The notes under the pieces are model-generated. The model saw only the letters and a list, made by a program, of their open reading frames with translations. It did not search any database and was not told where the DNA came from. This document shows, piece by piece, positions 1 through 45,018 of a stretch of DNA of 64,000 nt. The DNA lies in NCBI RefSeq assembly GCF_009914755.1, contig NC_060930.1; one strand, written 5' to 3'. The translations under genes were made by a program, and so were the position numbers. How positions within the stretch are numbered: position 1 is the first letter of the stretch; every line of letters begins with the position of its first letter. Source of the stretch: the human T2T-CHM13v2.0 reference genome, Homo sapiens.

Positions 1-1650
1 CCTCAAGGAAATAACTTCTCAGTGTTCCATCTGCTATTCTACTACTCCTCAGGGATTATTCAGGCCCCCTCCCTTCCCTACACATCAAGCTCGAGGATTT
101 GCCCCACCCAGGACTGGCAAATTAGCTTTACTCAACATGCCCCGAGTCGGATAACTAAAATACCTCTTAGTCTAGGTAGACACTTTCACTGGATAGGTAG
201 AGGCCTTTCCTACAGGGTCTGAGAAGGCCACCACAGTCATTTCTACCCTTCTGTCAGACATAATTCCTCAGTTTAGCCTTCCCATCTCAATACAGTCTGA
301 TAACAGACCAGCCTTTATTAGTCAAATCAGCCAGCAGTTTTTCAGGCTCTTAGTATTCAGTGAAACCTTTATATCCCTCACGGTCCTGCGTCTTCAAGAA
401 AAGTAGAATAGACTAAAGGTCTTTTAAAAACACACCTCACCAAGCTCAGCCACCAACTTAAAAAGGACTGGACAATACTTTTACCACTTTCCCTTCTCAG
501 AATTCAGGCCTGTCCTCAGAATGCTACAGGGTACAGCCCATTTAAGCTCCTGTATAGACGCTCCTTTTTATTAGGCCCCAGTCTCATTCCAGACACCAGA
601 CCGACTTTGACTGTGCCCCAAAAAAAATTGTCATCCCTACTATCTTCTGTCTAGTCATACTCCTATTCACCGTTCTCAACTACTCATACATGCCTTGCTC
701 TTGTTTACACTGCCGGTTTACACTGTTTCTCCAAGCCATCACAGCTGATATCTCCTCCTGCTATCCCCAAACTGCCACTCTTAACTCTTGAAGTAAATAA
801 ATAATCTTTGCTGGCAGGACTATGCTGAATCTCCTTAGGCACTCTCTAATCAGATATCCTGAGTCATCCCAATTCTTAGAACTTTTATACCTGTTTTTCT
901 CCTTCTGTTATTCCATTTAGTTTTTCAATTCATCCAAAACCGTATCCAGGCCATCACCAATCATTCTATACGACAAATGTTTCTTCTAACATCCCCACAA
1001 TATCACCCCTTACCACAAGACCTCCCTTCAGCTTAATCTCTCCCACTCTAGGTTCCCACACTGCCCCTAATCCCGCTTGAAGCAGCTCTGACAAACATCG
1101 CCCATTCTCTCTCCATACCACTCCCTAAAAATTTTCGCTGCCCCAACACTTCAACACTATTTTGTTTTATTTTTCTTATTAATGTAAGAAGTCAGGAATG
1201 TCAGGCCTCTGAGCCCAAGCCAAGCCATCGCATCCCCTGTGACTTGCACGTATAAGCCCCGATGGCCTGAAGTAACTGAAGAATCACAAAAGAAGTGAAT
1301 ATGCCCTGCCCCACCTTAACTGATGACATTCCACCACAAAAGAAGTGTAAATGGCCGTTCCTTGCCTTAAGTGATGACATTACCTTGTGAAAGTCCTTTT
1401 CCTAGCTCATCCTGGCTCAAAAAGCTCCCCCACTGAGCACCTTGGGACCCTTGCCCCTGCCCACCAGAGAACAACCCCCTTTGACTGTAATTTTCCTTTA
1501 CCTTCCCAAATCCTATAAAATGGCCCCACCCCTATCTCCCTTGGCTGACTCTCATTTCGGACTCAGCCCGCCTGCATCCAGGTGAAATAAACAGCCATGT
1601 TGCTCACACAAAGCCTGTTTGGTGGTCTCTTCACACGGACGCGCATGAAA
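1..1650 (+). mobile_element. HERV-H provirus #1, 3' part (integrase remnant, env-deleted 3' region, 3' LTR7); 5' part lies outside the window
   Basis: 1-1198 is colinear with 27945-29139 and 43421-44565; purine tract AAGAAGTCAGGAA precedes an LTR running TGTCAGGCC...GCGCATGAAA. Confidence 0.97.
1199..1650 (+). promoter_or_regulatory. LTR7 (LTR7up-like), 3' LTR of provirus #1
   Basis: TGTCAGGCCTCTGAGCCCAAGCC start, two ACAAAAGAAGTG blocks, TATAAAA, AATAAA, CATGAAA end. Confidence 0.95.
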
Positions 1651-23747: not shown

Positions 23748-24200
23748 TGTCAGGCCTCTGAGCCCAAGCCAAGCCATCGCATCCCCTGTGACTTGCACGT
23801 ATAAGCCCAGATGGCCTGAAGTAACTGAAGAATCACAAAAGAAGTGAATATGCCCTGCCCCACCTTAACTGATGACATTCCACTACAAAAGAAGTGAAAA
23901 TGGCCGGTCCTTGCCTTAAGTGATGACATTACCTTGTGAAAGTCCTTTTCCTGGCTCATCCTGGCTCAAAAACCTCCCCCACTGAGCACCTTTCGACCCC
24001 GACTCCTGCCCGCCAGAGAACAAACCCCCTTTGACTGTAATTTTCCTTTACCTACCCAAATCCTATAAAACAGCCCCACCCTTATCTCCCTTCACTGACT
24101 CTCTTTTCCGACTCAGCCTACCTGCACCCAGGTGAAATAAACAGCCATGTTGCTCACGCAAAGCCTGTTTGGTGGTCTCTTCACACGGACGCGCATGAAA
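23748..24200 (+). promoter_or_regulatory. 5' LTR7 (LTR7up-like) promoter of provirus #2
   Basis: ACAAAAGA SOX-like motifs at 23835 and 23885, TATAAAA 24064-24070, AATAAA 24136-24141. Confidence 0.93.
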
Positions 24201-24202
24201 TT

Positions 24203-24220
24203 TGGTGCCGTGACTTGGAT
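24203..24220 (+). other. tRNA-His primer-binding site, one C>T mismatch
   Basis: TGGTGCCGTGACTTGGAT versus TGGTGCCGTGACTCGGAT, the complement of the tRNA-His 3' end. Confidence 0.95.
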
Positions 24221-24343
24221 CGGGGGACCTCCCTTCGGAGATCAATCCCCTGTCCTCCTGTTCTTTGCTCCATGAGAAAGATCCACCTACGACCTCAGGT
24301 CCTCAGACTGACCAGCCCAAGAAACATCTCACCAATTTCAAAT

Positions 24344-24352
24344 CCGGTAAGC
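24344..24352 (+). promoter_or_regulatory. HERV-H major splice donor (#2)
   Basis: CCG|GTAAGC about 145 nt downstream of the 5' LTR, the known HERV-H donor position. Confidence 0.8.
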
Positions 24353-24814
24353 GGCCTCTTTTTACTCTCTTCTCCAACCTCCCTCACTATCCCTCAACCT
24401 CTTTCTCCTTTCAATCTTGGCGCCACACTTCAATCTCTGCCTTCTGTTAATTTCAATTCCTTTCATTTTCTGGTAGAGACAAAGGAGACACTTTTTATCC
24501 GTGGACCCAAAACTCCGGCGCCAGTCACGGACTAGGAAGGCAGCCTTCCCTTGGTGTTTAATCATTGCAGGGACACCTCTCTGATTATTCACCCATGTTT
24601 CAAAGGTGTCAGACCACTCAGGGACACCTGCCTTGGTCCTTCACCCTTAGCGGCAAGTCCTGCTTTTCTGGGGAAGGGGCAAGTACCCCAACTCTTTCTC
24701 TCCTTGTCTCTACCCCTTCTCTGCTTTTCTGGGGGAGGGGCAAGTACCCCTCAACCCCTTCTCCTTCACCCTTAGCAGCAAGTCCCGCTTTTCCAGAGGA
24801 GGGGCAAGTACCCC

Positions 24815-25055
24815 AACCTCGTATCTCTGTGCCCCAATCCCTTATTTCCACGCCACAACCTCTTATATCTCTGCACCCCAGTCCCTTATTTCCACACCCT
24901 GACTTCTTATCTCTGCACCCCAATCCCTTATTTCCATGCCCCGACCCCTTATTTCTGTGCCCCGACCCCTTATTTCCATGCCCCGACCCCTTATTTCTGC
25001 ACCCCATCCCTTATTTCTGTGCCGCAACCTCTTATCTCTGTGCCCCAACCCCTTT
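24815..25055. repeat. ~21-22 bp tandem repeat array in the HERV-H leader
   Basis: about 10 units of CCCCTTATTTCYRTGCCCCGAC-like sequence. Confidence 0.88.
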
Positions 25056-25979
25056 TCCCACTTTTCTAGAAGGTAAGAACCCCCGAACCCCTTCCCTCCA
25101 TTTCTCTACTCTCTCTTTTCTCTAGGCTTGCTTCCTTCACTATAGGCAACTTTCCACCCTCCATTCCTCCTTCTACTCCCTTAACCTGTGTTCTCAAAAA
25201 CTTAAAACCTCTTCAACTCACACCTGACCTAAAACCTAAATGTCTTATTTTCTTCTGCAATGCTGCTTGACCCCAATACAAACTCGACAGTAGTTCCAAA
25301 TAGCCAGAAAACGGCACTTTCAATTTTTCCATTCTACAAGATCTAAATACTTCTTATCGTAAAATAGGCAAATGGTCTGAGGTGACTGACGTCCAGGCAT
25401 TTTTTACACATCAGTCCCTTCCTAGTCTCTGTGCCCAGTGCAACTCGTCCCAAATCTTCTTTCCCTTCCGCCTGTCCCCTCAGTCCCAACCCCATGCATC
25501 ACTGAGTCTTTCTAATCTTCTTTTTCTACAGACCCATCTGACCTCTACCCTCCTCGCCAGGCCAAGCTAGGTCCCAATTCTTCCACCCTATAATCTTTTT
25601 ATTGCCTCCCCTCCTCATACCTGGTCCGGCTTACAGTTTCCTTCCGTGACTAGCCCTCCCCCACCTGCCCAGCAATTTCCTCTTAAAAAGGTGGCTGGAG
25701 CCAAAGGCATAGTCAAGGTTAATGCTCCTTTCTCTTTATCCCAAATCAGATAGCGTTTAGGCTCTTTTTCATCAAATATAAAAACCCAGCCCAGTTCATG
25801 TCTCATTCGGCAGCAACCCTGCGACGCTTTACAGCCCTAGACCCTAAAAGGTCAAAAGGCCATCTTATTCTCAATATACATTTTATTACCCAATCTGCTC
25901 CTGACATTAAATAAAACTCCAAAAATTAGAATCTGGCCCTCAAACCTCACAACAGGATTTAATTAACCTCACCTTCAAG

Positions 25980-26306
25980 GTGTACAATAATAGAAAAAAG
26001 TTGCAATTCCTTGCCTCCACTGTGAGACAAACCCCAGCCACATCTCCAGCACACAAGAAATTCCAAACACCTGAACCACAGCGGCCAGGCATTCCTCCAG
26101 AACCTCCTCCCCCAGGAGCTTGCTACAAGTGCCAGAAATCTGACCACCAGGCCAAGGAATGCCTGCAGCCCAGGATTCCTCCTAAGCCGTGTCCCATTTG
26201 TGCAGGACCCCACTGGAAATCGGACTGTTCAACTCACCTGGCAGCCACTCCCGGAGCCCCTGGAACTCTGGCCCAAGACTCTCTGACTGACTCCTTCTCG
26301 GCTTAG
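25980..26306 (+). pseudogene. gag: HERV-H gag remnant, nucleocapsid with two CCHC zinc knuckles
   Basis: CYKCQKSDHQAKEC and CPICAGPHWKSDC (CX2CX4HX4C); upstream gag broken by stops. Confidence 0.93.
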
Positions 26307-26339
26307 CGGCTGAAGACTGACGCTGCCCGGTCGCCTCGG

Positions 26340-28510
26340 AAGCCCCGTAGACCATCAGGGACGCCGAGCTTTGGGTAACTCTCACAGTGGAAGGTAAGCC
26401 CGTCCCCTTCTTAATCAATACAGAGGCTACCCACTCCACATTACCTTCTTTTCAAGGGTCTGTTTCCCTTGCCTCCATAACTGTTCTAGGTATTGACGGC
26501 CAGGCTTCTAAACCTCTTAAAACTCCCCAAATCTAGTGCCAACTTAGACAATACTCTTTTAAGCACTCCTTTTTAGTTATCCCCACCTGCCCAGTTCCCT
26601 TATTAGGCTGAGACACTTTAACTAAATTATCTGCTTCCCTGACTGTTCCTGGACTACAGCTGTATCTCATTGCCGCCTTTCTTCCCAATCCAAAGCTTCC
26701 TTTGCGTCCTCCTCTTGTATCCCCCCACCTTAACCCACAAGTATAAGATACCTCTACTCCCTCCTTGGTGACCGATCATGCACCCCTTACCGTGTCATTA
26801 AAACCTAATCACCCTTACCCCACTAAATGCCAATATCCCATCCCGCAGCACGCTTTAAAAAGATTAAAGCCTGTTATCACTGGCCTGCTACAGCATGGCC
26901 TTTTAAAGCCTATAAACTCTCCTTATAATTCCCCCATTTTACCCATCCTAAAACTGCACAAGTCTTACAGATTAGTTCAGGATCTGCATCTTATCAACCA
27001 AACTGTTTTGCCTATCCACCCTGTGGTGCCCAAGCTGTACACTCTTTTGTCCTCAATACCTTCCTCCACAACTCACTATTCCGTGCTTGATCTTAAAGAT
27101 GCTTTTTTCACTATTCCCCTGCACCCCTCGTCCCAGCCTCTCTTCGCTTTCACTTAGACTGACCCTGACACCCATTAGGCTCTGCAAATTACCTAGGCTG
27201 TACTGCCGCAAGGCTTCATAGACAGCCCCCATTACTTCAGTCAAGCCCAAATTTCATCCTCATCTGTTACCTATCTCGCCATAATTCTCATAAAAACACA
27301 CGTGCTCTCCCTGCTGATCATGTCCGATTAATCTCCCAAACCTCAATCCCTTACAAAACAACAACTCCTTTCCTTCCTAGGCATAGTTAGTGCGGTCAGA
27401 ATTCTTACACAAGAGCCAGGACTGCACCCTGTAGTGTTTCTGTGCAAACAACTTGACCTTACTGTTTTATCCTAGCCCTCATGTCTGCGTGCAGCGGCTG
27501 CCGCTGCTTTAATAGTTTTAGAGGCCCTCAAAATCACAAACTATGCTCAACTCACTCTCTACATTTCTCATAACTTCCAAAATCTATTTTCTTCCTCATA
27601 CCTGACGCATATACTTTCTGCTACCCAGCTCCTTCAGCTGTTCTCACTCTTTGTTAAGTCCTACAATTATCATTGTTCCTGCCCTGGACTTCAATCCGGC
27701 CTCTCACATTATTCTGGATACCACACCTGACCCCCATGACTGTATCTCTCTGATCCACCTGACATTCACCCCATTTCCCCAAATTTCCTTATTTCCTGTT
27801 CCTCATCCTGATCACGCTTGATTTATTGATGGCGGTTCCACCAGGCCTAATCGCCACACACCAGCAAAGGCAGGCTATGCTATAGCACAAGCCACTAGCC
27901 CGCCTCTTAGAACCTCTCATTTCCTTTCCATCGTGGAAATCTATCCTCAAGGAAATAACTTCTCAGTGTTCCATCTGCTATTCTACTACTCCTCAGGGAT
28001 TATTCAGGCCCCCTCCCTACCCTACACATCAAGCTCGAGGATTTGCTCCCACCCAGGACTGACAAATTAGCTTTACTCAACATGCCCCGAGTCAGATAAC
28101 TAAAATCCCTCTTAGTCTAGGTAGACACTTTCACTGGATAGGTAGAGGCCTTTCCTACAGGGTCTGAGAAGGCCACCACAGTCATGTCTTCCCTTCTGTC
28201 AGACATAATTCCTCAGTTTAGCCTTCCCACCTCTATACTGTCTGACAACAGGTAAGCCTTTATTAGTCAAATCAGCCAAGCAGTTTTTCAGGCTCTTAGT
28301 GTTCACTGAAACCTTTATATCCCTTATGGTCCTCCGTCTTCAAGAAAAGTAGAATGGACTAAAGGTCTTTAAAAACACACCTCACCAAGCTCAGCCACCA
28401 ACTTAAAAAGGACTGGACAATACTTTTACCACTTTCCCTTCTCAGAAGTCAGACCTGTCCTCAGAATGCTACAAGGTACAGCCCATTTAAGCTCCTATAT
28501 AGACGCTCCT
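26340..28510 (+). pseudogene. pol: HERV-H pro-pol remnant (protease, deleted RT/RNase H, integrase)
   Basis: LINTEATHS (dead DTGA site, 26411-26437); YRLVQDL...VLDLKDAFFTIPL; LPQGFIDSP near 27203; no YxDD seen; many stops. Confidence 0.92.
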
Positions 28511-29139
28511 TTTTATTAGGCCCCAGTCTCATTCCAGACACCAGACCAACTTAGACTGTGCCCCAAAAAAACTTGTCATCCCTACTATCTTCTGTCTAGT
28601 CATACTCCTATTCACCGTTCTCACCTACTCATACATGCCCTGCTCTTGTTTACACTGCCAGTTTACATTGTTTCTCCAAGCCATCACAGCTGATATCTCC
28701 TGGTGCTATCCCCAAACTGCCACTCTTAACTCTTGAAGTAAATAAATAATCTTTGCTGGTAGGACTATGCTGAATCTCCTTAGGCACTCTCTAATCAGAT
28801 ATCCTGAGTCGTCCCAATTCTTAGACATTTTATACCTGTTTTTCTCCTTCTGTTATTCCATTAAGTTTTTCAATTCATACAAAACCATATCAAGGCCATC
28901 ACCAATCATTGTATACGACAAATATTTCTTCTAACATCCCCACAATATCACCCCTTACCACAAGACCTCCCTTCAGCTTAATCTCTCCCACTCTAGGTTC
29001 CCACGCCGCCCCGTAATCCCGCTTGAAGCAGCCCTGAGAAACATCGCCCATTCTCTCTACATACCACCCCCCAAAAATTTTCACTGCCCCAACACTTCAA
29101 CACTATTTTATTTTTCTTATTAATATAAGAAGTCAGGAA

Positions 29140-29591
29140 TGTCAGGCCTCTGAGCCCAAGCCAAGCCATCGCATCCCCTGTGACTTGCACGTATAAGCCC
29201 AGATGGCCTGAAGTAACTGAAGAATCACAAAAGAAGTGAATATGCCCTGCCCCACCTTAACTGATGACATTCCACCACAAAAGAAGTGTAAATGGCCGGT
29301 CCTTGCCTTAAGTGATGACATTACCTTGTGAAAGTCCTTTTCCTGGCTCATCCTGGCTCAGAAAGCACCCCCACTGAGCACTTGCAACTCCCACTCCTGC
29401 CCACCAGAGAACAAACCGCCTTTGACTATAATTTTCCTTTACCTACCCAAATCCTATAAAACGGCCCCACCCCTATCTCCCTTTGCTGACTCTCTTTTTG
29501 GACTCAGCCCGCCTGCACCCAGGTGAAATAAACAGCCATGTTGCTCACACAAAGCCTGTTTGGTGGTCTCTTCACACAGAAGCGCATGAAA
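29140..29591 (+). promoter_or_regulatory. 3' LTR7 of provirus #2
   Basis: direct repeat of 23748-24200, preceded by AAGAAGTCAGGAA. Confidence 0.95.
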
Positions 29592-39251: not shown

Positions 39252-39704
39252 TGTCAGGCCTCTGAGCCCAAGCCAAGCCATCGCATCCCCTGTGACTTGC
39301 ACGTATAAGCCCAGATGGCCTGAAGTAACTGAAGAATCACAAAAGAAGTGAATATGCCCTGCCCCATCTTAACTGATGACATTCCACCACAAAAGAAGTG
39401 TAAATGGCCAGTTCTTGCCTTAAGTGATGACATTACCTTGTGAAAGTCCTTTTCCTGGCTCATCCTGGCTCAAAAGGCACCCCCACTGAGCACCTTGTGA
39501 CCCCCACTCCTGCCCGCCAGAGAACAAACCCCCTTTGACTGTAATTTTCCTTTACCTACCCAAATCCTATAAAACAGCCCCACCCTTATCTCCCTTCACT
39601 GACTCTCTTTTCTGACTCAGCCTACCTGCACCCAGGTGAAATAAACAGCCATGTTGCTCACACAAAGCCTGTTTGGTGGTCTCTTCACACAGACACGCAT
39701 GAAA
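39252..39704 (+). promoter_or_regulatory. 5' LTR7 (LTR7up-like) promoter of provirus #3
   Basis: two ACAAAAGAAGTG blocks, TATAAAA 39568-39574, AATAAA, ends CATGAAA. Confidence 0.93.
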
Positions 39705-39706
39705 TT

Positions 39707-39724
39707 TGGTGCCGTGACTCGGAT
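39707..39724 (+). other. tRNA-His primer-binding site, perfect
   Basis: TGGTGCCGTGACTCGGAT. Confidence 0.96.
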
Positions 39725-39847
39725 CGGGGGACCTCCCTTAGGAGACCAGTCTCCTGTCCTCCTGTTCTTTGATCCGTGAGAAAGATCGCCCTATGACCTC
39801 AGGTCCTCAGACCAACCAGCCCAAGAAACATCTCACCAATTTCAAAT

Positions 39848-39856
39848 CCGGTAAGC
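39848..39856 (+). promoter_or_regulatory. HERV-H major splice donor (#3)
   Basis: CCG|GTAAGC at the same offset as in #2. Confidence 0.8.
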
Positions 39857-41449
39857 GGCCTCTTTTTACTCTCTTCTCCAACCTCCCTCACTATCCCTCA
39901 ACCTCTTTCTCCTTTCAATCTTGGCGCCACACTTCAATCTCTCCCTTCTGTTAATTTCAATTCCTTTCATTTTCTGGTAGAGACAAAGGAGACACGTTTT
40001 ATCTGTGGACCCAAAACTCCAGCGCCGGTCACGGACTGGGAAGGCAGCCTTCCCTTGGTGTTTAATCATTGCAGGGATGCCTCTCTGATTATACACCCAC
40101 GTTTCAAGGGTCTCAGACCACGCAGGGACACCTGCCTTGGTCCTTCACCCTTAGCGGCAAGTCCCGCTTTTCTGGGGAAGGGGCAAGTACCCCGACCCCT
40201 TATCTCCTTGTCTCTACCCCTTCTCTGCTTTCCTGGGGCAGGGGCAAGAACCCCTCAACCCCTTCTCTCCTTGTCTCTACCCCTTCTCTGCTTTCCTGGG
40301 GCAGGGGCAAGAACCCCTCAACCCCTTCTCCTTCACCCTTAGCAGCAAGTCCCGCTTTCCTGGGGCAGGGGCAAGTACCCCTCAACCCCTTCTCCTTCAC
40401 CCTTAGCGGCAAGTCCCGCTTTCCTAGGGGGCAAGAACCCCCCAATCACTTATTTCCATGCCCCAACCTTTATCTCTGCACCCCAATCCCTTATTTCTGT
40501 GCCCCAACCCTTTCTCTGCTTTTCTGGAGGGCAAGAACCCCCAACCCCTTCTCTGTGTCTCTACTCTTTTCTCTGGGTTTGCCTCCTTCACTATGGGCAA
40601 GCTTCCACCTTCCATTCCTCCTCCTTCTCCCTTAGCCTATATTCTTCAGAACTTAAAACCTCTTCAATTCTCACCTGACCTAAAATCTAAGCATCTTATT
40701 TTCTTCTGCAATGCTGCTTGACCCCAATATAAACTCGACAGGAGTTCCAAATAGCCAGAAAATGGCACATTCAATTTTTCCATCCTACAAGATCTAAATA
40801 ATTCTTGTCGTAAAATGGCAAATGGTCTGAGGTGCCTGAAGTCCAGGCATTCTTTTACACATCAGTCCCTTCCTAGTCTCTGTGCCCAGTGCAACTCGTC
40901 CCAAATCTTCCTTCTTTCCCTCCCGCCTGTCCCCTCAGTCCCAACCCCAAGCGTCACTGAGTCTTTCTAATCTTCCTTTTCTGCAGACCCATCTGACCTC
41001 TCCCCTCCTCGCCAGGCTGAGCTAGGTCCCAATTCTTCCTCAGCCTCCGCTCCTCCACCCTGTAATCTTTTTATCACCTCCCCTCCTCACACCTGGTCCG
41101 GCTTACAGTTTCCTTCCGTGACTAGCCCTCCCCCACCTGCCCAGCGATTTACTCTTAAAAAGGTGTCTGGAGCCAAAGGCATAGTCAAGGTTAATGCTCC
41201 TTTTTCTTTATCCCAAATCAGATAGTGTTTAGGCTCTTTTTCATCAAATATAAAAACCCAGCCCACTTCATGTCTCATTCGGCAGCAACCCTGTGACGCT
41301 TTACAGCCCTAGACCCTAAAAGGTCAAAAGGCCATCTTATTCTCAATATACATTTTATTACCCAATCTGCTCCCGACATTAAATAAAACTCCAAAAATTA
41401 GAATCTGGCCCTCAAACCCCACAACAGGACTTAATTAACCTCACCTTCA

Positions 41450-41808
41450 AGGTGTACAATAATAATAAAAAAAAAAAAGTTGCAATTCCTTGCCTCCACT
41501 GTGAGACAAACCCCAGCCACATCTCCAGCACACAAGAAGTTCCAAACGCCTGAACTGCAGTGGCCAGGCATTCCTCCAGAACCTCCTCCCCAGGAGCTTA
41601 CTACAAGTGCCAGAAATCTGGCCACCAGGCCAAGGAATGCCCGCAGCCCAGGATTCCTCCTAAGCCGTGTCCCATCTGTGTGGGACCCCACTGGAAATCG
41701 GACTGTTCAACTCACCTGGCAGCCACTCCCAGAGCCCCTGGAACTCTGGCCCAAGGCTCTCTGACTGACTCCTTCTTGGCTTACCGGCTGAAGACTGACA
41801 CTGCCTGA
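41450..41808 (+). pseudogene. gag: HERV-H gag remnant (NC)
   Basis: YYKCQKSGHQAKEC (first Cys lost) and CPICVGPHWKSDC; frameshifted relative to #2. Confidence 0.9.
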
Positions 41809-41819
41809 TCTCCTCGGAA

Positions 41820-43930
41820 GCCCCATAGACCATCACGGACGCCGAGCTTTAGGTAGCTCTCACAGTGGAAGGTAAGTCCATCCCCTTCTTAATCAATATG
41901 GAGGCTACCCACTCCACATTACCTTCTTTTCAAGGGCCTGTTTCCCTTGCCTCCATAACTGTTGTGGATATTGACAGCCGGGCTTCTAAACCTCTTAAAA
42001 CTCCCCAACTCTGGTACCAACTTAGACAACACTCTTTTATGCACTCTTTTTTAGTTATCCCCACCTGCCCAGTTCCCTTATTAGGCCGAGATATTTTAAG
42101 CAAATTATCTGCTTCCCTATTCCTGGATTACAGCTGCGTCTCATTGCTGCCCTTCTTCCCAATCCAAAGCCTCCTTTGCGTCCTCCTCTTGTATCCCCCA
42201 AACTTAACCCACAAGTGTAAGATACCTCTACTCCCTCCTTGGTGACCGATCATGCACCCCTTACCATCTCATTAAAACCTAATCACCCTTACCCCACTAA
42301 ATGCCAGTATCCCATCCCGCAGCATGCTTTGAAAGGATTAAAGCCTGTTATCACTGGCCTGCTACAGCATGGCCTTTTAAAGCCTATAAACTCTCCTTAC
42401 AATTCCCCCATTTTACCTGTCCTAAAACCAGACAAGCCTTACAAGTTAGTTCAGAATCTGCGCCTTATCAACCAAATTGTTTTGCCTATCCACCCCGTGG
42501 TGCCAAACCCATATACTCTCCTATCCTCAATACCTGCCTCTACAACCCATTAGTCTGTTCTAGATCTCAAACATGCTTTCTTTACTATTCCTTTGCACCC
42601 TTAATCCCAGCCTCTCTTTGCTTTCACTTGGACTGACCCTGACACCCATCAAGCTCAGCAAATTACCTAGGCTGTACTGCCGCAAAGCTTCACAGACAGC
42701 CCCCATTACTTCAATCAAGCCCAAATTTCATCCTCATCTGTTACCTATCTCGGCATAATTCTCAGAAAAACCTACATGCTCTCCCTGCCAATCGTGTCCG
42801 ACTGATCTCTCAAACCCCAGCACCTTCTATAAAACAACAACTCCTTTCCTTCCTTGGCATGGTTAGCGTGGTCAGAATTCTTACACAAGAGCCAGGACCA
42901 CACCCTGTAGCCTTTCTGTCCAAACAACTTGACCTTACTGTTTTAGCCTAGCCCTCATATCTGTGTGCAGCGGCTGCCACTGCTTTAATACTTTTAGAGG
43001 CCCTCAAAATCACAAAGTATGCTCAACTCACGCTCTACAGTTCTCATAACTTCCAAAATCTATTTTCTTCCTCATACCTGATGCATATACTTTCTGCTTC
43101 CTGGCTCCTTCAGGTGTACTCACTCTTTGTTAAGTCCCACAATTACCATTGTTCCTGGCCCAGACTTCAATCCGGCCTCCCACATTATTCCTGATACCAC
43201 ACCTGACCCCCATGACTGTATCTCTCTGATCCACCTGACATTCACCCCATTTCCCCATATTTCCTTCTTTCCCGTTCCTCACCCTGATCACGCTTGATTT
43301 ATTGATGGTGGTTCCACCAGGCCTAATCGCCACACACCAGCAAAGGGAGGTTATGCTATAGTACAAGCCACTAGCCTGCCTCTTAGAACCTCTCATTTTC
43401 TTTCCATCATGGAAATCTATCCTCAAGGAAATAACTTCTCAGTGTTCCATCTGCTATTCTACTACTCCTCAGGGATTATTCAGGCCCCCTCCCTTCCCTA
43501 CACATCAAGCTCGAGGATTTGCCCCCATCCAGGACTGGCAAATTAGCTTTACTCAACATGCCCGAGTCAGGAAGCTAAAATACCTCTTAGTCTAAATAGA
43601 CACTTTCACTGAATAAGTAAAGGCCTTTCCTACAGGGTCTGAGAAGGACACCACAGTCATTTCTTCCATTCTGTCAGACATAATTCCTCAGTTTAGCCTT
43701 CCCACCTCTATACAGTCTGATAACAGATGAGCCTTTATTAGTCAAATCAGCCAAGCATTTTCTCAGGCTCTTAGTATTCAGTGACTGACTAATGGTCTAT
43801 TAAAAACACACCTCACCAAGCTCAGCCACCAACTTAATAAGGACTGGACAATACTTTTACCACTTTCCCTTCTCAGAAGTCAGACATGTAATGCTACAAG
43901 GTATAGCCCATTTAACCTCCTGTATGGATG
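41820..43930 (+). pseudogene. pol: HERV-H pro-pol remnant
   Basis: FLINMEATHS...PLLGRDILSKL (protease); QYPIPQ...SPYNSPILPVLKPDKPYKLVQNLR (RT N-terminus); stops and deletions. Confidence 0.92.
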
Positions 43931-44565
43931 CTTCTTTTTATTAGGCCCCAGTCTCATTCCAGACAAAAGACTAACTTCGACTGTGCCCCAGAAAACTTGT
44001 CATCCCTACTATCTTCTGTCTAGTCATACTCCTATTCACGTTCTCAACTACTCATACATGCCCTGCTCTTGTTTACACTGCCGGTTTACACTGTTTCTCC
44101 AAGCCATCACAGCTGATATCTCCTGTGCTATCTCCAAAGTGCCACTCTTAACTCTTGAAGTAAATAAATAATCTTTGCTGGCAGGACTATGCTGAACCTC
44201 CATAGGCACTCTCTAATTAGATGTCCTAGGTCCTCCCAATTCTTAGTGCTTTTATACCTGTTTTTCTCCTTCTCTTATTCCATTTAGTTTTTCAATTCAT
44301 ACAAAACTGTATCCAGGCCATCACCAATCATTCTATACGACAAATATTTCTTCTAACATCCCCACAATATCACCCCTTACCACAAGACCTCCCTTCAGCT
44401 TAATCTCTCCCACTCTAGGTTCCCACACCACCCCTAATCCCGCTTGAAGCAGCCCTGAGAAACATCGCCCATTCTCTCTCCATACCACCGCCCAAAAATT
44501 TTCGCCGCCCCAAGACTTCAACACTATTTTGTTTTATTTTTCTTATTAATATAAGAAGGCAGGAA

Positions 44566-45018
44566 TGTCAGGCCTCTGAGCCCAAGCCAAGCCATCGCAT
44601 CCCCTGTGACTTGCACGTATAAGCCCCGATGGCCTGAAGTAACTGAAGAATCACAAAAGAAGTGAATATGCCCTGCCCCACCTTAACTGATGACATTCCA
44701 CCACAAAAGAAGTGTAAATGGCCGGTCCTTGCCTTAAGTGATGACATTACCTTGTGAAAGTCCTTTTCCTAGCTCATCCTGGCTCAGAAAGCTCCCCCAC
44801 TGAGCACCTTGCGACCCCTACTCCTGCCCACCCGAGAACAAGCCCCCTTTGACTGTAATTTTCCTTTACCTAGCCAAATCCTATAAAACAGCCCCACTCT
44901 TATCTCCCTTCACTGACTCTGTTTTCGGACTCAGCCCGCCTGCACCCAGGTGAAATAAACAGCCATGTTGCTCACACAAAGCCTGTTTGCTGTTCTCTTT
45001 ACAGGGACGCGCATGAAA
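44566..45018 (+). promoter_or_regulatory. 3' LTR7 of provirus #3
   Basis: direct repeat preceded by purine tract AAGAAGGCAGGAA. Confidence 0.95.

What the first reader, a model, noticed from the sequence alone, without database searches (positions are those of the whole stretch)
23748..23968. The U3 enhancer half of all five LTRs is nearly invariant while the distal half is diverged
Approximate hand counts: #2 5' vs 3' LTR differ at about 2 sites in the first ~220 nt but about 20 in the last ~230 nt; #3 5' vs 3' differ at about 5 versus about 20. The first 60 nt, including two CpGs (ATCGCA, CACGTA), are identical in all five LTRs. All five read CACGTATAAGCCC, whereas I recall TATACGCCC in the consensus. 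Neutral decay should be roughly even along an LTR. Inference: a conversion hotspot centred on U3, or constraint on the block carrying the SOX-like ACAAAAGA motifs. The TATAAG allele could be a locus-private marker of homogenisation.
Basis: partly seen in the sequence, partly recalled or inferred. Interest (0 to 1): 0.7.

Follow-up and report, generated by a model that had tools for sequence, protein, structure and literature searches.

The report
Neighbouring HERV-H enhancers swapped sequence
Separately inserted copies of a human endogenous retrovirus lying close together on chromosome 6 share rare DNA changes in the front (enhancer) half of their terminal repeats, likely because they copied short stretches from one another by gene conversion, a known process.

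Summary
In detail: five LTR7up-type LTRs of three separately inserted HERV-H proviruses differ at 8 columns in LTR positions 1-221 and 42 in 222-453. Part of this is family-wide. In 22 control proviruses, 5'/3' divergence is 2.65% versus 3.85%, mostly from CpG density. The cluster exceeds that: 0 of 4620 control quintets reach its ratio. The best explanation is ectopic gene conversion. A change at LTR position 62 matches only twice genome-wide, in the 3' LTRs of proviruses 1 and 3; both their 5' LTRs lack it. Provirus 1's 5' LTR, just outside the window, reverses the gradient (9 versus 7 differences) and lacks TATAAG. TATAAG is locally enriched (6 of 28 sites among 511 matching LTRs), not locus-private. 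Selection on the SOX block is unsupported. A general U3 hotspot is not shown: neighbouring proviruses elsewhere also share rare alleles, but along the whole LTR. Conversion between LTRs is known; four searches found no description of it for this cluster. Part of the distal excess is unexplained.

The parts
1199..1650 (+). P1 3' LTR (LTR7up type). Front half is of the P3-3' type; distal half keeps P1's own haplotype
   Evidence: 1 difference to P3 3' vs 9 to its own 5' LTR in 1-221; 7 vs 22 in 222-453
1193..1419 (+). Inferred conversion tract shared with P3 3' LTR (about LTR -6 to 221; one mismatch, at 160); carries 57A (1255) and 62C (1260)
23748..24200 (+). P2 5' LTR; 23748-23968 is the finding; 57A at 23804; ACAAAAGAAG motifs from 23835 and 23885; TATA box at LTR 317, AATAAA at LTR 389; primer-binding site follows
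29140..29591 (+). P2 3' LTR; 57A at 29196, 222G at 29361; rare polypurine-tract T at 29133, shared with P1 and P4
39252..39704 (+). P3 5' LTR; 57A at 39308; distal half nearer to P2 5' (10 differences) than to its own 3' LTR (20)
44560..44786 (+). Inferred conversion tract shared with P1 3' LTR; 57A (44622), 62C (44627)
44566..45018 (+). P3 3' LTR; 222G at 44787 shared with P2 3' and P4 3'; 11 rare non-CpG distal alleles
23748..29591 (+). HERV-H provirus P2, own target-site duplication (ATAG)
39252..45018 (+). HERV-H provirus P3, own target-site duplication (GTAAA); matches published 6q23.2_H3, a candidate provirus/solo-LTR dimorphism

Best explanation
The front halves of these LTRs share rare alleles across separately inserted proviruses, likely because repeated short ectopic gene-conversion events copied the polypurine-tract/front-U3 segment between neighbouring, over 90% identical HERV-H copies after insertion. 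Shown: three window proviruses plus an inverted fourth (P4, about 160 kb on) each have their own target-site duplication. P1 3' and P3 3' share a genome-unique allele that their 5' partners lack. P1's distal half still pairs with its own 5' LTR. P1 5' and the P4 5' stub lack 57A. Inferred: germ-line double-strand breaks in or near the LTR were repaired without crossover from a nearby paralogue, in several overlapping tracts of about 0.15-0.25 kb and in mixed directions (206A is in both P1 LTRs and in P3 3' and P4 3'; 57A is foreign to P1). The high distal 5'/3' divergence likely combines more CpG sites (9 vs 4), 5'-to-5' exchange between P2 and P3 that broke the sister pairing, and an unexplained private load in P3 3'. 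Meiotic versus early-embryo mitotic breaks is untested.
For: 62C pattern: 2 matches genome-wide, P1 3' and P3 3'; both 5' LTRs have A. P1 3' vs P3 3': 1 difference in 1-221, where 4 of 924 control between-provirus pairs have 1 or fewer (mean 9.7). P1 5'/3' share six rare distal alleles but differ at 9 front sites. 57A: 6 of 28 sites among 511 LTRs lie in this cluster. Polypurine-tract T: 3 of 13 sites are P1, P2, P4 (682 sites match the stricter any-base pattern). 222G: 3 of 22 sites are P2 3', P3 3', P4 3'. Longest identical runs for P1/P3 (165 nt), P2/P3 (143) and P2/P4 (185) lie in this segment. Homology and distance limits: a divergent-subtype provirus between P3 and P4, and an LTR7up-type provirus about 560 kb away, lack 57A and 62C. 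Generality: 11 of 25 neighbour cross-pairs share a rare non-CpG allele vs 68 of 916 distant pairs (7 of 19 without the two groups picked by likeness). The chr10 pair repeats the pattern (3'-3' front 2 differences; own 5' partners 10 and 10) and is a published recombining pair with 42 CNVs.
Against: One haplotype only, with no ape orthologues or population data, so direction, non-reciprocity and dates are not shown; duplication followed by deletion would leave the same trace. Outside CpG sites the front-half homogeneity is weaker (162 of 4620 quintets as low). Expected run counts assume uniform divergence, while the front half is intrinsically less variable. P2 and P3 carry 57A in both LTRs, as do four proviruses elsewhere, so its first presence in the cluster may be inherited. 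P2 and P4 share 7 rare alleles over 1.45 kb, which sibling insertion could also give. 5 of 11 usable neighbour groups share nothing, and only 1 of 25 neighbour cross-pairs has 2 or fewer front differences. No PRDM9-like motif lies in 1-221.
Confidence: 0.8

Rival explanations
1. Ordinary family-wide mutation gradient: the distal part has more CpG sites, so every LTR7up provirus shows this and nothing local happened.
For: Controls 128/4831 vs 195/5063 (p=0.0008); non-CpG 89/4659 vs 113/4667 (p=0.10); 16 of 22 pairs have distal > front; 4 of 22 pairs have 2 or fewer front differences.
Against: It gives a ratio near 1.5, not 5 (0 of 4620 quintets), and cannot place a genome-unique allele in two proviruses. 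It is a real contributor, not the whole cause.
Confidence: 0.04
2. Shared viral ancestry or local re-insertion: the cluster copies descend from one TATAAG-bearing parent, so they were born alike in U3.
For: Four proviruses elsewhere carry TATAAG in both LTRs; P2 and P3 do too. P2/P4 share 7 rare alleles upstream of the 3' LTR vs a control mean of 1.1.
Against: Reverse transcription gives both LTRs the same U3 (established retrovirology), yet P1 5' and P4 5' lack 57A, and 62C and 222G are in 3' LTRs only. P1's native distal-U3 alleles are absent from P2 and P3. Internal divergence among the copies is 4.5-9%. It may explain how 57A first entered the cluster.
Confidence: 0.08
3. Purifying selection keeps the SOX2/3-bearing enhancer block intact while the rest drifts.
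For: The 8-bp motif is needed for LTR7up promoter activity (PMC8912925, section 11); all seven cluster LTRs keep both copies; RefSeq enhancers overlap these LTRs (hub annotation).
Against: Selection does not create shared new alleles. The 3' LTRs are more alike (1-3 differences) than the 5' promoter copies (5-11). Motif conservation in controls is not significant (p=0.21).
Confidence: 0.04
4. RNA- or cDNA-templated conversion: abundant HERV-H transcripts, whose 3' end carries the polypurine tract, U3 and R of the 3' LTR, template repair of nearby copies.
For: Sharing is strongest among 3' LTRs and includes the polypurine-tract allele; the chr10 pair is also 3'-3'.
Against: Such a template runs to about LTR 410, but tracts stop near 221-228. 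It does not predict confinement to about 200 kb, nor sharing in the leader and between 5' LTRs.
Confidence: 0.04

Closest known systems
Non-allelic gene conversion among human LTRs (Trombetta et al. 2016, PMC4921805)
   Same: Patchwork LTRs, tracts up to 450 bp, linked donors favoured (part 1 and passages read).
   Different: That study concerns Y-chromosome LTRs typed in populations; 'LTR7' has 0 occurrences in it. Here the copies are autosomal LTR7up-type enhancers, inferred from paralogues in one haplotype.
HERV-H-mediated non-allelic homologous recombination (Campbell et al. 2014, PMC4195946)
   Same: Same family and homology range; its supplement lists P1-P4 as HERV-H, and its commonest CNV pair (10p14, 42 CNVs) is the chr10 pair that repeats the pattern.
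   Different: It reports crossovers (deletions, duplications); 'gene conversion' has 0 occurrences in the main text; none of its 27 chr6 pairs joins two members of this cluster.
Provirus/solo-LTR dimorphism 6q23.2_H3 (Thomas et al. 2018, PMC6298018)
   Same: Same provirus as P3 by length and by constant offset; candidate for 5'/3' LTR recombination in living humans.
   Different: Within-provirus crossover; the passages seen do not treat exchange between proviruses.
LTR7 block mosaicism (Carter et al. 2022, PMC8912925)
   Same: Exchange of LTR blocks, including the SOX2/3 block, between HERV-H lineages (sections 6, 9, 11, 14 read).
   Different: Framed as recombination between subfamilies that then amplified; here the exchange is between fixed neighbouring copies after insertion.
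Conversion between transposable elements rewiring regulatory networks (Fawcett and Innan 2019, PMC6598467)
   Same: Predicts the spread of motif variants among copies by conversion (part 1 of 4 read).
   Different: A review and hypothesis; no regulatory effect of the alleles here is shown.

Membership tests
HERV-H provirus | Paired LTRs with a target-site duplication, primer-binding site after the 5' LTR | tested here: met
   that the site matches tRNA-His is recalled, not tested
HERV-H provirus | Published annotation as HERVH at these places | tested here: met
   hg19 starts map to P1, P2 and P3 with one constant offset (873,313), and lengths agree within 1 nt
LTR7up subfamily | 8-bp AAAAGAAG motif in a duplicated block 2a/2b (also present in 7u1) | tested here: met
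   ACAAAAGAAG at LTR 88 and 138 in all seven cluster LTRs
LTR7up subfamily | Phylogenetic placement in 7up1/7up2 rather than 7u1 | not tested
   no subfamily reference set was used
LTR7up subfamily | African-ape orthology and stem-cell transcription | not testable with these tools
   P3 is marked 'MA' in the Thomas supplement; reading it as 'moderately active' is my inference from the main text
Non-allelic gene conversion | Rare allele shared between paralogues and absent from each one's own partner LTR | tested here: met
   62C; 222G in 3' LTRs only
Non-allelic gene conversion | Bounded tract, with native sequence and target-site duplications kept on either side | tested here: met
Non-allelic gene conversion | Dependence on homology and distance | tested here: met
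Non-allelic gene conversion | Non-reciprocal transfer with a known donor and acceptor | not testable with these tools
   needs orthologues or population haplotypes
PRDM9 recombination hotspot in U3 | PRDM9-A 13-mer motif (recalled) within the tract | tested here: not met
   no site within 1 mismatch in 1-221; one-mismatch sites in the distal half of 3 of 7 LTRs. Says nothing on extinct PRDM9 alleles
PRDM9 recombination hotspot in U3 | DMC1/PRDM9 peaks or linkage hotspot at the locus | not testable with these tools
   no maps available
Family-wide U3 conversion hotspot | Neighbour-shared alleles concentrated in 1-221 in other clusters | tested here: inconclusive
   9 of 14 positions, p=0.29
Purifying selection on the SOX block | Motif more conserved than flanks; promoter copies most conserved | tested here: not met
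   (motif test p=0.21; 3' LTRs most alike)

The most novel reading that the evidence does not exclude
Embryo-active LTR7up enhancers in HERV-H clusters evolve in concert: breaks at the open SOX-bound U3 in pluripotent, pre-germline cells are repaired from neighbouring proviruses, spreading enhancer alleles across a 200-kb domain. This would also produce part of the excess divergence of transcribed HERV-H that has been read as directional selection.
Probability: 0.15. Interest if true: 0.72.

Novelty: new member of a known kind. Interest (0 to 1): 0.42.

Why it matters
It is a clean locus-level case of one HERV-H enhancer half being overwritten by a neighbour's, with a genome-unique marker. It shows that 5'/3' LTR dating fails for clustered HERV-H: P2 and P3 look as diverged distally as unrelated copies. 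The small neighbour test suggests such exchange is common within about 250 kb. That bears on the reported fast divergence of transcribed HERV-H (PMC4477479, passages, whose authors already allow a contribution from ectopic recombination) and on read mapping and guide-RNA design at these enhancers. No functional effect is shown.

Tried and rejected
Locus-private TATAAG: rejected (22 of 28 sites elsewhere, 17 loci by my count). CpG gradient as sole cause: rejected. Segmental duplication of the cluster: rejected, since flanks and target-site duplications differ. P1 as parent of P2/P3: rejected, since P1's distal-U3 alleles are missing in them. The identity of P2 3' front half with a chr6 LTR 8.5 Mb away (L011) was not counted, because the panel was enriched for TATAAG. 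One search was mis-set by one base and is uninformative; one search repeated it correctly. A stretch expected to hold L011's 5' LTR held none. A C/G mismatch excess in P2+P3 distal halves (6 of 22 vs 11 of 126, p=0.02; vs all control sites p=0.10) is post hoc and kept only as a lead. The tract cannot be dated (95% interval 0.01-2.4% divergence). Rows dropped: 20 of 42 control pairs (other LTR7 subtypes, truncated or badly extracted) and 9 of 20 neighbour groups. Only the front 221 and 202 nt of the provirus 560 kb away were captured. Earlier scan findings were not available.

Full report
Anatomy. The window holds five LTR7-type LTRs: P1 3' (1199-1650), P2 5' and 3' (23748-24200, 29140-29591), P3 5' and 3' (39252-39704, 44566-45018). 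P1's 5' LTR lies about 4 kb before the window (locus L079). An inverted fourth provirus, P4, lies about 160 kb past P3; its 5' LTR is a 70-nt stub. Each has its own target-site duplication (P1 CTGGC/CCGGC, P2 ATAG, P3 GTAAA, P4 ATAAC), so these are separate insertions. A published table lists P1-P3 as HERV-H at one constant offset, with P4 and a fifth element between P3 and P4 (PMC4195946, supplement file 2). All seven full cluster LTRs carry ACAAAAGAAG at positions 88 and 138, TATAAA at 316/317 and AATAAA at 388/389. The 8-bp motif marks LTR7up and 7u1 (PMC8912925, section 11). Position 221 is therefore inside U3 (U3/R boundary inferred near 345).

The observation. The five LTRs have 8 variable columns in 1-221 and 42 in 222-453; P2 5'/3' differ at 2 vs 22, P3 at 5 vs 20; positions 1-61 are invariant.

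The right null. I assembled 42 control 5'/3' pairs, located by internal flanking patterns or a degenerate motif (with stretches from 26, 27, 29, 45). 22 had both LTRs near full length on P2 coordinates and were kept. Their divergence is 128/4831 (2.65%) in front and 195/5063 (3.85%) distally (p=0.0008); without CpG sites, 89/4659 vs 113/4667 (p=0.10); 16 of 22 lean the same way. Family CpG sites number 4 in front and 9 distally. So a 1.5-fold gradient is ordinary, and a front count of 2 is not rare within one provirus (4 of 22 pairs). Across three proviruses it is: of 4620 control quintets (mean 19.2 front, 30.1 distal), 5 have 8 or fewer front columns, 570 have 40 or more distal, and none has so low a front share; non-CpG, the figures are 162, 976 and 17 (gap columns excluded). 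The quintets overlap and the boundary is post hoc, so these are guides, not exact probabilities. Motif-based choice of some controls lowers their front divergence, which works against my reading.

Transfer after insertion. Both LTRs of a provirus are identical at integration (established; also stated in PMC6629862, part 1). P1 5' and P1 3' share six rare distal alleles and differ there at 7 sites, so P1's distal half is native. In front they differ at 9 sites, while P1 3' differs from P3 3' at 1; 4 of 924 control between-provirus pairs are that close. The two share 62C, whose pattern matches only these two places in the genome; both 5' partners have A. The tract runs from about -6 to 221 with one mismatch. 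TATAAG (57A) is at 28 of 511 LTRs that match the degenerate pattern; the exact 19-mers give 14 vs 128. Six of the 28 are in this cluster, including P4 3'; P1 5' and P4 5' have T. A polypurine-tract T is at 13 sites, three being P1, P2 and P4. 222G is at 22 sites, three being P2 3', P3 3' and P4 3'. The carriers differ from allele to allele, and 206A is in both P1 LTRs and in P3 3' and P4 3', which implies several events in mixed directions (inference). The longest identical runs for P1/P3 (165 nt), P2/P3 (143) and P2/P4 (185) fall in this segment; other runs lie in the leader and interior. The fifth element, a divergent subtype, and an LTR7up-type provirus about 560 kb away lack 57A and 62C.

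The distal half. P2 and P3 have 21 and 20 distal 5'/3' substitutions; 1 of 22 controls reaches 20, and it is itself in a cluster (p=0.03). P2 5' and P3 5' differ at only 10 and share a double change at 372-373 seen in 2 of 77 controls, which suggests 5'-to-5' exchange. P3 3' carries 11 rare non-CpG distal alleles against a control 3' mean of 3.4 and a maximum of 6 among 20, with no close donor in the panel (nearest 14 differences). This is unexplained. Promoter-associated early-embryo mutagenesis (PMC12658150, abstract only) or break-repair mutagenesis (PMC7615360, passages) are leads; the C/G excess here is weak and post hoc.

Generality. Of 20 neighbour groups elsewhere, 11 had comparable LTRs. 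11 of their 25 cross-pairs share a rare non-CpG allele vs 68 of 916 distant pairs; 7 of 25 vs 10 of 916 share two or more; without the two groups picked by likeness, 7 of 19 and 5 of 19. Cross-pairs within a group are not independent, and 5 of the 11 groups share nothing. Shared alleles lie along the whole LTR (9 of 14 positions in front, p=0.29), so a family-wide U3 hotspot is not shown. One group copies the chr6 pattern: on chr10 the 3' LTRs of two proviruses 167 kb apart differ at 2 front sites but at 10 each from their own 5' LTRs. By spacing and position this is the published 10p14 pair with 15 deletions and 27 duplications.

Selection. Motif sites differ at 5 of 440 in controls vs 88 of 4246 (p=0.21). 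The 3' LTRs are the most alike, not the 5' promoters, and selection cannot put one new allele into two copies. It is not excluded as a minor filter.

Known and new. Ectopic conversion among human LTRs and its distance dependence are published (PMC4921805, part 1 and passages), as are HERV-H crossovers (PMC4195946, passages and supplement rows), the candidate solo-LTR allele of P3 (PMC6298018, passages and one supplement row) and the idea that conversion spreads motifs (PMC6598467, part 1 of 4). Searches found no paper on conversion in this cluster or among neighbouring LTR7 copies; of their hits I saw listings only, apart from the papers cited. The library lacks most subscription papers, and bioRxiv supplements could not be seen. 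Verdict: a real, locally strong case of a known process.

Noticed in passing
L007, L008, L139, L140 (G000:C10, 6.63 and 6.80 Mb): Two proviruses 167 kb apart share 12 rare alleles over 1.45 kb upstream of the 3' LTR and near-identical 3' LTR fronts, unlike their own 5' LTRs; this matches the published 10p14 CNV pair.
   Followed up: partly
L103-L106 (G000:C1, 72.81-72.83 Mb): Adjacent proviruses: 235T and 269C are in both LTRs of one and only the 5' LTR of the other, whose 5'/3' divergence (10 and 20) is among the highest of the controls.
   Followed up: partly
L041, L143, L144 (G000:C5, 148.40 Mb): A 3' LTR of an inverted neighbour shares 3-4 rare alleles with the adjacent provirus.
   Followed up: partly
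L080, L049 (G000:C6, 132.699-132.704 Mb): P4 has lost all but 70 nt of its 5' LTR and about 600 nt of leader, yet keeps its target-site duplication.
   Followed up: partly
window 44787-45018: P3 3' LTR carries 11 rare non-CpG alleles, several of them C/G transversions, with no donor found.
   Followed up: partly
window 24311-24438 and the matching P3 leader: P2 and P3 share a 128-nt identical run and a rare allele (0 of 18 controls) in the leader, a possible further tract.
   Followed up: partly
L054, L055 (G000:C15, 86.30-86.32 Mb): One HERV-H provirus spans 14.5 kb (same target-site duplication at both ends), with TATAAG in both LTRs; the extra interior was not examined.
   Followed up: no
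L005, L003 (G000:C23, 93.14-93.15 Mb): An extra LTR lies about 10 nt upstream of a provirus's 5' LTR and is closer to that provirus's 3' LTR (4 and 4 differences) than to the adjacent 5' LTR (12 and 7).
   Followed up: no
G000:C13, 55.327-55.330 Mb: Two inverted LTRs 2.4 kb apart both match the rare 222G pattern; one was dropped as non-comparable.
   Followed up: partly
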